Of a stretch of 24,000 nucleotides of DNA, positions 9,388-22,000 are shown piece after piece; the first letter of the stretch is position 1; every line of letters begins with the position of its first letter. This DNA comes from Thermococcus paralvinellae (GTDB lineage Archaea > Methanobacteriota_B > Thermococci > Thermococcales > Thermococcaceae), in assembly GCF_000517445.1 (NCBI RefSeq), contig NZ_CP006965.1, positions 944,681 to 968,680 of the forward strand. Reading direction: 5' to 3'. The position numbers and the translations under genes were made by a program. Below the pieces are notes generated by a model. The model ran no database searches. It was not told the origin of the DNA and was given only the letters and a program-made list of their open reading frames with translations.

Positions 9388-11573
9388 ATTTCAATTCTTC
9401 TAAAGTCTTATTGAAACTGGGTCACAATCAACTTCGAAGGCGACGCTGACAAGGATTTCAATTCTTCTAAAGTCTTATTGAAACGCACCGCTCCAAGTCG
9501 GCAATGCATTGATGCTGTCAAGATTTCAATTCTTCTAAAGTCTTATTGAAACCTGATCACCGAGGCTAAGCTTTGATGGGTTGAGCAATATTTCAATTCT
9601 TCTAAAGTCTTATTGAAACCGTAAGTATCGTTGAACTTAACCCAAACCAAGTAATTATTTCAATTCTTCTAAAGTCTTATTGAAACGGTCTTGCAAAGCC
9701 AAGATACAGCTTCTATATACTCATATTTCAATTCTTCTAAAGTCTTATTGAAACCTCCGCGGGGGGACTTAGATGTGAGGCTTAAGAAGTTTGCATTTCA
9801 ATTCTTCTAAAGTCTTATTGAAACATCTTCCAGGACAAAGTGCATGGTCCAGGAAGATATATTTCAATTCTTCTAAAGTCTTATTGAAACCATCGGCATT
9901 AGGATCCCAAAAGAGGTTGCCGAACTGAATTTCAATTCTTCTAAAGTCTTATTGAAACTCACTTTGAGGGTGTAGTTGCCCATCTTTGGCAGAGGAGTAT
10001 TTCAATTCTTCTAAAGTCTTATTGAAACTGAAAAGTGCATGATAAAGCCTTAATCCACCCTTCTTCGATTTCAATTCTTCTAAAGTCTTATTGAAACAGG
10101 AACTCGGAATAACAAAACAAAAACTCAAGAAGCTATTTCAATTCTTCTAAAGTCTTATTGAAACATAGCGAGCCGAGACAGGGAATAAAAGCTGATGTGG
10201 TATTTCAATTCTTCTAAAGTCTTATTGAAACCGTAAGTATCGTTGAACTTAACCCAAACCAAGTAATTATTTCAATTCTTCTAAAGTCTTATTGAAACTT
10301 GAGGAGTTAAGAGAGAAGGGCTACGAGGATGCACTAATTTCAATTCTTCTAAAGTCTTATTGAAACGGGGAGAACAGAAAAGCCTAAGCATTGACGACGA
10401 AGTTATTTCAATTCTTCTAAAGTCTTATTGAAACCTAACTCTAAGATCGATTAAACTGTATTGCTGAGCGAATTTCAATTCTTCTAAAGTCTTATTGAAA
10501 CCCCCAGCATGGGGATAGGGGTTAGGCGTCATAGGAATATTTCAATTCTTCTAAAGTCTTATTGAAACCAATAACTTCCCTCTCAAGAGGTTCAGGATAG
10601 AAGTAATTTCAATTCTTCTAAAGTCTTATTGAAACAAATGTTTTGCGATGAAGCTACAGCAATCTTTATTCAATTTCAATTCTTCTAAAGTCTTATTGAA
10701 ACTTCGCTCTACTTAGAAGTTTTGCACCTTCCTCTATAAAATTTCAATTCTTCTAAAGTCTTATTGAAACTCTTACCGACATTTCATCAGGCTTGAACGA
10801 GAACAGAATTTCAATTCTTCTAAAGTCTTATTGAAACAAGTAGAAAACAAAAAGGTTTTAGAGATTGAGCTTTTATTTCAATTCTTCTAAAGTCTTATTG
10901 AAACCCGTGCATTGTTCCCGCAATCCCCTTGCCAGGAACAATTACATTTCAATTCTTCTAAAGTCTTATTGAAACCTCCGCCAACTCTTAGTATGCCTAA
11001 ACCTCCCGAATCTCTATTTCAATTCTTCTAAAGTCTTATTGAAACTTGAAGACCGATTTGAGGCTGATTTTAGATGGAAAGGATTTCAATTCTTCTAAAG
11101 TCTTATTGAAACCGCCAAGTGCCCAAAGTACTACACAAAGAAAGAAGACATTTCAATTCTTCTAAAGTCTTATTGAAACTCAATGCAAACCATCTGCCAT
11201 CGTGCTTCACATCGTCTATTTCAATTCTTCTAAAGTCTTATTGAAACTCTCACCGACAACTATCATCGCCGTCATGATTTTTGTATTTCAATTCTTCTAA
11301 AGTCTTATTGAAACTGAACCGCTATGGCAACCTTTGCCCCTGCTGCTACGTATTTCAATTCTTCTAAAGTCTTATTGAAACCAATTACATGCTTAGAGAA
11401 GCTATTCTCAAGGTCGAGGTATTTCAATTCTTCTAAAGTCTTATTGAAACACATCATTCACGATGAAGCTACAGCAATCTTTATTCAATTTCAATTATTC
11501 TAAAGTCTTATTGAAACTTCGCTCTACTTAGAAGTTTTGCACCTTCCTCTATAAAATTTCAATTCTTCTAAAG
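9388..11573 (-). CRISPR. CRISPR array, main block: 32 intact 30-nt repeats and 32 spacers (36-41 nt), crRNA sense on minus strand
   Basis: The plus strand reads ATTTCAATTCTTCTAAAGTCTTATTGAAAC. Its reverse complement, GTTTCAATAAGACTTTAGAAGAATTGAAAT, aligns along its length with the P. furiosus repeat GTTCCAATAAGACTAAAATAGAATTGAAAG, which sets the orientation. Repeat 32 carries a C>A variant at 11497. The last 18 nt (11556-11573) are the 5' part of a hybrid repeat. Confidence 0.97.
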
Positions 11574-12689
11574 AAGAATTGAAATCCTTTCCATCTAAAA
11601 TCAGCCTCAAATCGGTCTTCAAGTTTCAATAAGACTTTAGAAGAATTGAAACCCTTTCCATCTAAAATCAGCCTCAAATCGGTCTTCAAGTTTCAATAAG
11701 ACTTTAGAAGAATTGAAACCCTTTCCATCTAAAATCAGCCTCAAATCGGTCTTCAAGTTTCAATAAGACTTTAGAAGAATTGAAACCCTTTCCATCTAAA
11801 ATCAGCCTCAAATCGGTCTTCAAGTTTCAATAAGACTTTAGAAGAATTGAAACCCTTTCCATCTAAAATCAGCCTCAAATCGGTCTTCAAGTTTCAATAA
11901 GACTTTAGAAGAATTGAAACCCTTTCCATCTAAAATCAGCCTCAAATCGGTCTTCAAGTTTCAATAAGACTTTAGAAGAATTGAAATAATTGACCTTTTA
12001 GAGGACTATGGCATAAGTAAGGTTAGTTTCAATAAGACTTTAGAAGAATTGAAATAATTGACCTTTTAGAGGACTATGGCATAAGTAAGGTTAGTTTCAA
12101 TAAGACTTTAGAAGAATTGAAATAATTGACCTTTTAGAGGACTATGGCATAAGTAAGGTTAGTTTCAATAAGACTTTAGAAGAATTGAAATAATTGACCT
12201 TTTAGAGGACTATGGCATAAGTAAGGTTAGTTTCAATAAGACTTTAGAAGAATTGAAATAATTGACCTTTTAGAGGACTATGGCATAAGTAAGGTTAGTT
12301 TCAATAAGACTTTAGAAGAATTGAAATAATTGACCTTTTAGAGGACTATGGCATAAGTAAGGTTAGTTTCAATAAGACTTTAGAAGAATTGAAATAATTG
12401 ACCTTTTAGAGGACTATGGCATAAGTAAGGTTAGTTTCAATAAGACTTTAGAAGAATTGAAATAATTGACCTTTTAGAGGACTATGGCATAAGTAAGGTT
12501 AGTTTCAATAAGACTTTAGAAGAATTGAAATAATTGACCTTTTAGAGGACTATGGCATAAGTAAGGTTAGTTTCAATAAGACTTTAGAAGAATTGAAATA
12601 ATTGACCTTTTAGAGGACTATGGCATAAGTAAGGTTAGTTTCAATAAGACTTTAGAAGAATTGAAATAATTGACCTTTTAGAGGACTAT
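11574..12689 (+). CRISPR. CRISPR block of inverted polarity: 16 intact repeats in plus-strand crRNA sense, carrying only two amplified spacers
   Basis: The repeat GTTTCAATAAGACTTTAGAAGAATTGAAA(T/C) reads on the plus strand. There are six identical 37-nt spacers with a 67-nt period (11586-11957). Ten identical 38-nt spacers follow with a 68-nt period (11988-12637), then a 22-nt truncated 11th copy (12668-12689). Confidence 0.9.
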
Positions 12690-12755
12690 CTCTTTGTTTG
12701 ACGAAAACCACACATTTCTAACCAAATTTCAATTCTTCTAAAGTCTTATTGAAAC
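12690..12755 (-). CRISPR. leader-proximal CRISPR unit (36-nt spacer-like sequence plus one intact minus-sense repeat)
   Basis: ctctttgtttgacgaaaaccacacatttctaaccaa (12690-12725) is followed by an intact ATTTCAATTCTTCTAAAGTCTTATTGAAAC (12726-12755) that directly abuts the AT-rich leader. Confidence 0.85.
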
Positions 12756-13281
12756 AGGGTGCAATTTTGTCCTATTTCTCTAATAAAACTATAAAAACAC
12801 TTGAATTATAAAAGCTTTTCTCCAAAGGGTCAAAAACAGAGCTAAAGCAAACCTCTGATTGATACCCTACTAGCAATCAATTAAGCTAATTCTCAGCCAT
12901 TTTCCTATAATTCAACGAACGTACAGCGATGTTCAGACCATCTCCAACAACTTTTTAGGTGTTAAAACTAGAAAAACTAAATAATAAGGGATCTATATTA
13001 AAAATGGTCAAATTTCCAAAAGGAATACTTACTAAAGAAACCTCGAGAGTCCCCCCTTCCAAATGAATACATTTAAAATGTTATGATTTCAGTAAAAATG
13101 TGCAACACAATGTAATTTAATAACAACTGATTACTAAAATCTTCCAACACATTCTCGAGCCTCCATTTTGGAATCAAACCATATTAGAACCCAAAAATTG
13201 CAAAAACTGGAACATCAGTGAGTATCGAAAAATCTTCAAAAAGATTAAATGGAAGTATGGTCAAAGTCACTATGATGAGCC
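12756..13281 (-). promoter_or_regulatory. CRISPR leader (also contains the divergent cas2 promoter)
   Basis: This is a 526-bp AT-rich stretch with no credible ORF, lying between the first minus-sense repeat and cas2. Minus-strand TATA candidates are TTTTATAA (plus-strand 12806-12813) and TTTTTATAGTTTTA (plus-strand 12784-12797), 30-60 nt upstream of the first repeat. Exact promoter and boundaries are not determined. Confidence 0.6.
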
Positions 13282-14573
<1,292 letters not shown>

Positions 14574-17237: not shown

Positions 17238-20255
<3,018 letters not shown>

Positions 20256-20375
20256 TTACTTGAGGGGCTGGGCATTTTTTGGGCCAATCCGCCTATGCAC
20301 GGCCCTCATCGTGACCCCTATTCGGGGCCTAGGACCCTTCCACCCCGAGCTTTGCTCGGGATGTGCACCTCTTCG

Positions 20376-20452
20376 TGGTGGACCGGCCGGGATTTGAACC
20401 CGGGGCCTCCGGCTTGCAAAGCCGGCGCTCTCCCAGGCTGAGCTACCGGCCC
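20376..20452 (-). tRNA. tRNA-Ala (anticodon TGC) with genomically encoded CCA, in the 16S-23S spacer
   Basis: The reverse complement is GGGCCGGTAGCTCAGCCTGGGAGAGCGCCGGCTTTGCAAGCCGGAGGCCCCGGGTTCAAATCCCGGCCGGTCCACCA. It folds as a cloverleaf with anticodon loop TTTGCAA and T-loop GGTTCAAATCC. Confidence 0.95.
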
Positions 20453-20459
20453 ACTCTAT

Positions 20460-20494
20460 GGCAGGCCCAACACCCCTTAAACCCCCCGGACGGG
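20460..20494 (-). other. 3' strand of the 16S rRNA processing stem (pairs with 22051-22085)
   Basis: Plus-strand ggcaggcccaacaccccttaaaccccccggacggg (20460-20494) is complementary to cccgtccggggtttggtcggggtgttgggcctgcc (22051-22085). This gives 17 bp plus 11 bp of perfect pairing around a central bulged section, the architecture expected for an archaeal bulge-helix-bulge processing site. Confidence 0.75.
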
Positions 20495-20505
20495 TTTCCG
20501 GCGAT

Positions 20506-22000
<1,495 letters not shown>

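What the first reader, a model, noticed from the sequence alone, without database searches (positions are those of the whole stretch)
11556..11585. Polarity switch occurs inside a length-preserving palindromic hybrid repeat
The junction repeat is ATTTCAATTCTT-CTAAAG-AAGAATTGAAAT. It combines the first 18 nt of the minus-sense orientation as read on the plus strand with the last 12 nt of the plus-sense orientation, totalling exactly 30 nt.

This forms a 12-bp perfect hairpin with a 6-nt loop. The flanking spacers (spacer 32 on the left, reverse-complemented spacer 25 on the right) are unrelated, so it is not a simple fold-back of adjacent sequence.

It looks instead like a register-preserving crossover between two oppositely oriented repeat copies, helped by the repeat's own partial dyad symmetry (GTTTCAAT...ATTGAAAT). 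That is the signature expected of homologous or microhomology recombination. It is also the signature of template switching during replication, or of chimeric read formation.
Basis: seen in the sequence. Interest (0 to 1): 0.6.

Follow-up and report, generated by a model that had tools for sequence, protein, structure and literature searches.

The report
Palindromic junction in misassembled CRISPR array
The palindromic hybrid CRISPR repeat is really present in the deposited sequence, but it lies in a stretch of a Thermococcus CRISPR array that looks like a faulty genome assembly, so it is most likely not a feature of the living organism.

Summary
Bases 11556-11585 are an in-register hybrid of the 30-nt repeat in its two orientations. 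It is more palindromic than reported: 14+14 complementary bases around a central AA, folding as a 13-bp stem with a 4-nt loop.

The hybrid is the left edge of a 1.1-kb block that cannot be a simple inversion. The block holds the reverse complement of spacer 25 six times, then a spacer found nowhere else ten times, all copies identical. It ends at a mid-spacer join that makes a 58-nt "spacer".

The reciprocal hybrid is absent from the genome. No such hybrid occurs among more than 5,900 repeats of this family in 98 other Thermococcales genomes.

A second array of the same genome, 97 kb away, has the same faults, plus a perfect 459-bp tandem duplication of its leader. Independent short-read contigs of the same strain (100% identical over 12 kb) carry only one leader copy. 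So the assembly is demonstrably unreliable beside its CRISPR arrays.

Best reading (about 0.78): an artefact of sequencing, assembly or finishing. A real strand-switch rearrangement is not excluded (about 0.13). No reads across the hybrid could be examined. The scan's notes held nothing similar on other DNA.

The parts
9388..11450 (-). Apparently sound body of the CRISPR array: 31 perfect 30-nt repeats and 30 spacers of 36-41 nt. crRNA sense is the minus strand. Spacer 4 equals spacer 13.
10636..10740 (-). Spacer 19, repeat, spacer 20: the source of the near-duplicate at 11451-11555.
   Evidence: (family D4)
11046..11082 (-). Spacer 25. Its reverse complement is repeated six times to the right of the hybrid.
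11451..11555 (-). Start of the anomalous stretch: a copy of spacer 19, repeat, spacer 20. It has 5 mismatches in the first 10 nt and one C>A change in the repeat at 11488-11517. That repeat is the only non-consensus repeat in the M-sense body of the array (9388-11517).
11556..11585 (.). The flagged hybrid repeat, M[1-18]+P[19-30]. It is a 14+14 nt palindrome with centre AA and marks the polarity switch.
11586..11987 (+). Six identical copies of the reverse complement of spacer 25, period 67 nt. Five of the intervening repeats end in C instead of T, which is the base the opposite orientation has at that position and extends the terminal stem from 7 to 8 bp.
11988..12689 (+). Ten identical copies, plus a 22-nt stub, of a 38-nt spacer (spX) found nowhere else in the genome. 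Period 68 nt, 100% identity.
12690..12725 (-). 36 nt of spacer length (spY), fused mid-spacer to the spX stub. Together they form a 58-nt pseudo-spacer. The piece to the right of the join starts flush with a repeat edge.
12726..12755 (-). Leader-proximal repeat in the proper (M) orientation.
12756..13281 (-). Leader and intergenic region up to cas2. The first ~85 nt next to the repeat are 88-90% identical (over a match that also includes the repeat) to the leader of the genome's clean array at 553728. Logan contigs match this region at 100%.
13282..13539 (+). cas2 (PF09827).
13536..14504 (-). cas1 (PF01867). cas4 (PF01930) lies further right.

Best explanation
The hybrid repeat is a join inside a wrongly reconstructed part of the array (about 11451-12689). 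It is not a structure of the organism's chromosome.

The array is transcribed on the minus strand from the leader at 12756 onward. Its trailer-side body (9388-11450) looks sound. Between that body and the leader-side piece (12690 onward), the deposited sequence holds filler made of:
- re-used spacers (19, 20, 25);
- one otherwise unseen spacer;
- single repeat-spacer units iterated 6 and 10 times.

This filler most likely came from chimeric or low-quality reads, or from looped gap filling, and the pieces were then concatenated at repeat edges.

The junction is palindromic and exactly 30 nt long because the repeat is a quasi-palindrome about its own centre (TTTCAAT/ATTGAAA at the ends, CT-AA-AG in the middle). 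Any strand switch at the central CT-AA-AG, in a polymerase reaction or in a consensus of mixed-orientation reads, mirrors the left half and keeps the register.

Shown here: the anatomy, the uniqueness of the hybrid, and the assembly error at the sister array. Inferred: that the same process produced this block, and which laboratory or software step did it.
For: 1. The inverted block is not the reverse complement of any contiguous native stretch. It holds just two spacers, in 6 and 10.3 identical tandem copies.

2. Its right edge is a non-homologous mid-spacer join that makes a 58-nt spacer. The piece to the right begins flush with a repeat edge.

3. The anomalous stretch begins with error-like differences: 5 mismatches in 10 nt, plus the only non-consensus repeat in the M-sense body of the array.

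4. The genome's other long array (genome 855389-857656) shows the same syndrome at its leader end:
- re-used spacers;
- one spacer in 4 tandem copies;
- a 55-nt mid-spacer chimera;
- a mutated repeat at the block's left edge;
- a perfect 459-bp tandem duplication of the leader, starting at the first base after the last repeat.

5. Logan short-read contigs from three runs (SRR5815174, SRR5815170, SRR5815168; eight similar places were not shown) are 100% identical to the genome over up to 12,255 nt. They run from the ABCE1 gene through a single leader copy into the CRISPR repeat without a break. The duplication junction is therefore missing from those reads.

6. Apart from one 57-nt x3 intergenic tandem, perfect local tandem duplications in this genome occur only at these two CRISPR loci.

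7. The reciprocal hybrid is absent. No hybrid occurs among more than 5,900 repeats of this family in 93 other Thermococcales genomes. None occurs in 185,579 species genomes or in the JGI metagenomes.

8. There is precedent: 'finished' genomes have been shown to differ in their CRISPR regions on long-read resequencing (PMC5771137).
Against: - No read spanning 11540-11600 could be examined. All Logan contigs stop inside the first repeat because the 30-nt repeat is shorter than k=31.
- The contradicting reads concern another locus. They may also come from a later culture, in which a real but unstable tandem duplication could have collapsed.
- The junction carries novel k-mers and is exactly in register, which a plain de Bruijn mis-walk would not create. 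It therefore needs a chimeric molecule or a mixed consensus, and neither was shown.
- Only 2 nt of microhomology make an in-vitro polymerase switch inefficient too.
- The T>C repeat variant shared by five internal copies is what amplification of one mutated unit in vivo would also give.
- The sequencing and finishing method of this genome could not be looked up.
Confidence: 0.78

Rival explanations
1. A real rearrangement in the sequenced clone. A replication or repair strand switch at the repeat's central mini-palindrome (fold-back or microhomology-mediated template switching) joined the repeat after spacer 32 to the opposite strand of the repeat after spacer 25. Unequal crossing-over or slippage then amplified two repeat-spacer units. 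A further illegitimate join closed the block next to the leader.
For: - The junction is exactly in register and palindromic, with a short asymmetric centre, as in known fold-back junctions.
- Five internal repeats share one T>C change, as expected if a mutated unit was amplified.
- Both affected arrays are hit at their leader-proximal ends, where integration chemistry and new-spacer turnover occur.
- Thermococcales are polyploid and prone to rearrangement (own knowledge; PMC4640148 abstract).
Against: - It needs at least five independent events in one locus: a duplication with clustered mismatches, a strand switch, two amplifications and a mid-spacer join. A similar set is then needed in a second array.
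- The arms beyond the palindrome are not mirror images (spacer 32 against the reverse complement of spacer 25), so it is not a simple fold-back.
- The companion leader duplication is absent from same-strain reads.
- No analogous hybrid exists in more than 5,900 related repeats.
Confidence: 0.13
2. A reciprocal inversion by recombination between two oppositely oriented repeat copies, as in site-specific or homologous inversion switches.
For: The hybrid is one of the two junction types such an inversion would create.
Against: - All repeats of a normal array are direct, so there is no inverted partner to recombine with.
- The reciprocal hybrid is absent from the genome and from 98 relatives.
- The other boundary lies inside a spacer.
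- The block's content is not an inverted native segment.
- Homology at the switch is 2 nt.
Confidence: 0.02
3. A functional element: the perfect hairpin acts as a terminator or processing signal that separates two convergently transcribed halves of a bidirectional array.
For: It is a strong hairpin (-10.1 kcal/mol).
Against: - The plus-sense block has no leader of its own and encodes only two distinct guides.
- There is no conservation in any relative.
- The context is a set of assembly-type anomalies.
Confidence: 0.02

Closest known systems
Misassembled CRISPR or repeat regions in genomes deposited as complete (e.g. the Porphyromonas gingivalis resequencing study, PMC5771137)
   Same: The errors are confined to repeat loci of an otherwise accurate finished genome. 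CRISPR regions differ when independent data are used (here).
   Different: Here the error is not just missing or extra units. It includes an inverted block, iterated units and a palindromic hybrid repeat. For the hybrid itself, the independent data are lacking.
Quasipalindrome template-switch mutations and fold-back inversion junctions (Ripley-type strand switching; own knowledge, not looked up here)
   Same: The hybrid differs from a normal repeat at exactly the five positions (19-22 and 30) that break the repeat's palindrome, so the quasi-palindrome is 'perfected'. The junction has a short asymmetric centre.
   Different: Classical quasipalindrome correction returns to the original template and leaves the flanks unchanged. 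A fold-back leaves mirror-image flanks. Here polarity changes and the flanks are unrelated spacers.
Inverted chimeric molecules made in vitro by polymerases during amplification or library preparation (own knowledge, e.g. multiple-displacement-amplification chimeras)
   Same: Segments from opposite strands a few hundred bases apart are joined at very short microhomology. The source positions would lie 342 nt apart if spacer 32 is really spacer 20.
   Different: Whether any amplification step was used for this genome is unknown. Chimeras do not by themselves explain 6 and 10 identical tandem units.
Natural spacer duplication or deletion by recombination between direct CRISPR repeats
   Same: It could account for spacer 4 equalling spacer 13, and in principle for tandem units.
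   Different: It never changes polarity, and it creates neither mid-spacer joins nor hybrid palindromic repeats.

Membership tests
CRISPR array of the Thermococcales 30-nt repeat family | Regularly spaced identical 30-nt repeats with unique spacers of 35-41 nt | tested here: met
   9388-11450: 31 perfect repeats and 30 spacers. The same repeat pattern occurs in 94 of 99 Thermococcales genomes.
CRISPR array of the Thermococcales 30-nt repeat family | Leader and adaptation genes adjacent to the array | tested here: met
   The leader resembles that of the array at genome 553728 (88-90% over about 110 nt including the repeat). cas2, cas1 and cas4 were identified by Pfam.
Reciprocal inversion between inverted repeat copies | Two reciprocal hybrid junctions bounding the inverted segment | tested here: not met
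   The reciprocal hybrid is absent at up to 3 mismatches in the genome and at up to 2 mismatches in 99 genomes. The right boundary lies mid-spacer.
Reciprocal inversion between inverted repeat copies | The inverted segment is the reverse complement of a contiguous native segment | tested here: not met
   The block consists of two spacers in 6 and 10.3 tandem copies.
Fold-back (palindromic) inversion junction | Palindromic junction with a short non-palindromic centre at a short inverted repeat | tested here: met
   14+14 nt arms with centre AA, seeded by the native CT-AA-AG.
Fold-back (palindromic) inversion junction | The arms continue as mirror images beyond the junction | tested here: not met
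   Spacer 32 on the left, the reverse complement of spacer 25 on the right.
Assembly or finishing artefact | The junction is absent from independent reads of the same strain | not testable with these tools
   Logan contigs break in every 30-nt repeat. No read access was available.
Assembly or finishing artefact | Other joins of the same kind in the same assembly are contradicted by independent data | tested here: met
   The 459-bp leader duplication at the sister array is absent from same-strain contigs of three runs (eight similar places were not shown).
Assembly or finishing artefact | Zero divergence among iterated units, piece boundaries flush with repeat edges, and error clusters at piece starts | tested here: met
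   TRF gives 100% and 99% identity. Boundaries lie at 12690 and genome 857657/858116. Mismatches lie at 11451-11460, 11497 and genome 857098.

The most novel reading that the evidence does not exclude
The block is real. In a polyploid hyperthermophile, a strand switch at the dyad centre of a CRISPR repeat flipped array polarity one unit from the leader. Single repeat-spacer units were then amplified 6 and 10 times, and a similar event hit a second array. This would point to a leader-proximal, repeat-centred rearrangement process, perhaps linked to aberrant Cas1-Cas2 integration or disintegration, or to repair of it.
Probability: 0.12. Interest if true: 0.55.

Novelty: not a real feature. Interest (0 to 1): 0.12.

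Why it matters
As an artefact, the finding matters mainly as a warning. Spacer catalogues, array-evolution analyses and host-virus linkage that use this genome would inherit about 17 spurious units, two chimeric 'spacers' and a false second leader. The reference should be corrected.

If the block were real, it would be a rare documented case of polarity reversal and unit amplification inside a CRISPR array, seeded by the repeat's own quasi-palindrome.

Tried and rejected
- **Read-level evidence for the hybrid.** Logan contigs carrying the identical Cas2 all end inside the leader-proximal repeat. The unitigs expected around the hybrid (about 58 nt) are too short to carry a called gene, so I made no look-up for them.
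- **Exact searches elsewhere.** The hybrid core was absent from 185,579 species genomes and from the JGI metagenomes. spX was absent from the JGI metagenomes.
- **Protospacer search.** The whole array searched against phage and plasmid collections gave no match, so no PAM-based orientation test was possible.
- **Relatives with the same repeat.** Only two Thermococcus or Thermococci MAGs came up, with 1-2 repeats per hit, and they were not informative.
- **Mistyped pattern.** One search used N8 instead of N7 and should be ignored. One search is the correct denominator.
- **Organism and sequencing method.** From memory, the genome size and GC suggest Thermococcus paralvinellae ES1. The genome announcement is not held, and I could not verify the name or the technology. 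Nothing in the verdict rests on it.
- **First Cas1 look-up.** One search used coordinates off by 3 nt and found nothing. It was corrected.
- **Earlier scan notes.** Word searches returned nothing comparable.
- **Idea rejected: the block came from the other array with the same repeat.** That array (genome 553728) shares no spacer with the block.

Full report
**What is there**

The window holds a CRISPR array at 9388-12755 with a 30-nt repeat. On the + strand the repeat reads ATTTCAATTCTTCTAAAGTCTTATTGAAAC (called M here; its reverse complement is P). The sequence to the right of the last repeat (12756 onward) resembles, in reverse complement, the leader to the left of a second array with the same repeat at genome 553728-554840. 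cas2, cas1 and cas4 follow. So crRNA sense is the minus strand, the leader is on the right, and M is the proper orientation on the + strand.

**The observation**

Bases 11556-11585 are exactly the reported 30-mer, M[1-18]+P[19-30]. Positions 17-18 (AG) are common to M and P, so the switch has only 2 nt of microhomology. The palindrome is longer than reported: 14+14 nt around a central AA. It folds as a 13-bp stem with a 4-nt loop at -10.1 kcal/mol, against -2.8 to -3.9 kcal/mol for normal repeats.

The hybrid differs from a normal M repeat at exactly the five positions (19-22 and 30) that spoil the repeat's own dyad symmetry. The repeat is a quasi-palindrome about its centre: TTTCAAT/ATTGAAA at positions 2-8 and 23-29, and CT-AA-AG at positions 13-18. 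A strand switch at that centre therefore gives a perfect palindrome of unchanged length automatically. 'Register-preserving' is thus a consequence of the geometry. It is not evidence for a particular mechanism.

The flanks are as stated: spacer 32 on the left and the exact reverse complement of spacer 25 on the right. The hybrid is unique in the 1.96-Mb genome, and the reciprocal hybrid is absent, both at up to 3 mismatches.

**The surroundings**

The hybrid is one edge of a larger anomaly. From left to right:

- **11451-11555.** Just before the hybrid, this stretch copies spacer 19, a repeat and spacer 20. It has 5 mismatches in its first 10 nt and a C>A change in the repeat at 11488-11517. 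That repeat is the only non-consensus repeat in the M-sense body of the array.
- **11586-11987.** After the hybrid come six identical copies of reverse-complemented spacer 25. Five of the intervening repeats end in C rather than T, which again is the base the opposite orientation has at that position.
- **11988-12689.** Next come ten identical copies, plus a 22-nt stub, of a 38-nt spacer (spX) that occurs nowhere else.
- **12689/12690.** The stub is fused, with no homology, to 36 nt (spY). Together they make a 58-nt pseudo-spacer.
- **12726-12755.** One proper repeat follows, and then the leader.

The inverted block is therefore not an inverted native segment, and its right edge is not the reciprocal junction. 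The piece to the right of 12689/12690 begins flush with a repeat edge, because 36 nt is a normal spacer length here.

**Is this a recurrent natural feature?**

A pattern for the normal repeat, at up to 2 mismatches, matches in 94 of 99 Thermococcales genomes, with more than 5,900 copies outside this genome. The corresponding palindromic-hybrid pattern matches only this locus, plus one chance hit inside a coding-looking region of one relative. The reciprocal pattern matches nothing. The exact hybrid core is absent from 185,579 species genomes and from the JGI metagenomes.

**The same syndrome elsewhere in this assembly**

A genome-wide scan for tandem repeats and for local perfect duplications finds them at two CRISPR loci and at one 57-nt x3 intergenic tandem. 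The other CRISPR locus is the array at genome 855389-857656. It has a slightly different repeat, and its leader is also on the right.

Near its leader, the spacer order reads A B C D E F, then A B B B, then a 55-nt B/D chimera joined mid-spacer, then E F G, then the leader. A mutated repeat sits at the left edge of the extra block. The 459-bp leader is duplicated in perfect tandem, starting at the first base after the last repeat. The third array, which has 17 repeats, is clean.

**Independent data**

The ABCE1 gene ends 21 nt to the right of that duplicated leader. I looked up its exact protein and obtained Logan short-read contigs from runs SRR5815174, SRR5815170 and SRR5815168. Eight similar places were not shown.

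These contigs are 100% identical to the genome over up to 12,255 nt, so they come from the same strain. They continue for 511 nt past the gene: 21 nt, then one 459-460-nt leader, then 29 nt of repeat, where they stop.

In a k=31 graph, a true tandem duplication would create a leader-end to leader-start junction and would break the contig at both leader ends. The uninterrupted path means those junction k-mers are missing. The uneven contig ends and an adapter remnant suggest that the runs are RNA-seq (inference). The argument still holds, because a second leader copy would transcribe across the junction.

There is a caveat: a real tandem duplication could have collapsed in a later culture.

**Interpretation**

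The deposited genome has at least one demonstrable reconstruction error flush against a CRISPR repeat. The window's block shares every other trait of that faulty region:

- re-used spacers;
- identical iterated units;
- an over-length mid-spacer chimera;
- piece boundaries at repeat edges;
- an error cluster at the left edge.

The leader-proximal position in both arrays is what one expects if the culture was heterogeneous in its newest spacers. Reads would then conflict there, and the gap would have been closed by poor reads or by looped filling (inference).

I therefore read the hybrid as a product of sequencing, assembly or finishing (about 0.78). It is most plausibly a strand-switched chimeric molecule, or a consensus of reads in mixed orientation, that was incorporated during gap closure. 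I could not establish which step produced it. The genome announcement is not held.

**Rivals**

- **A real in-vivo strand switch plus amplification (about 0.13).** It explains the register, the palindrome and the shared T>C variant. It needs many independent events in two arrays, and it conflicts with the leader result.
- **A reciprocal inversion (about 0.02).** It fails its two defining tests.
- **A functional hairpin or bidirectional array (about 0.02).** It has no supporting evidence.

**What could not be done**

No read across 11540-11600 was accessible, because every Logan contig ends in the first repeat. The array has no protospacer match in the phage or plasmid collections, so spacer orientation could not be checked by PAM. 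spX is absent from the JGI metagenomes.

**Verdict**

The feature is most likely not real, and interest is low. The decisive test is a count of junction k-mers in the strain's reads, or a PCR from spacer 30 to the leader.

Noticed in passing
outside the window: genome 855389-858576 (locus L014:2390-5577): A second CRISPR array has re-used spacers, one spacer in 4 tandem copies and a 55-nt mid-spacer chimera. Its 459-bp leader is duplicated in perfect tandem, but same-strain Logan contigs carry only one leader copy.
   Followed up: yes
window 9620-9656 and 10232-10268: Spacer 4 and spacer 13 are identical, while their neighbours differ. This could be a natural re-acquisition or duplication, or another reconstruction error.
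   Followed up: no
outside the window: genome 1335044-1335214: A perfect 57-nt x3 tandem repeat, with stop codons in all six frames across it, apparently intergenic. It is the only perfect local tandem outside the CRISPR loci.
   Followed up: partly
outside the window: genome 1799792-1803795 and 1953366-1957369: A 4.0-kb direct repeat at 99.9% identity. The second copy ends 373 nt before the end of the contig. It was not examined and could be a mobile element or an end-of-assembly issue.
   Followed up: no
window 13536-13539: cas2 (+) and cas1 (-) converge, and their ends overlap by 4 nt. Logan contigs confirm this arrangement at 100% identity, so it is real.
   Followed up: partly
window 17774-21682: Short GC-rich repeat families (repeat finder families D5 and D6) lie in a GC-rich stretch, probably ribosomal RNA. 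They were not examined.
   Followed up: no
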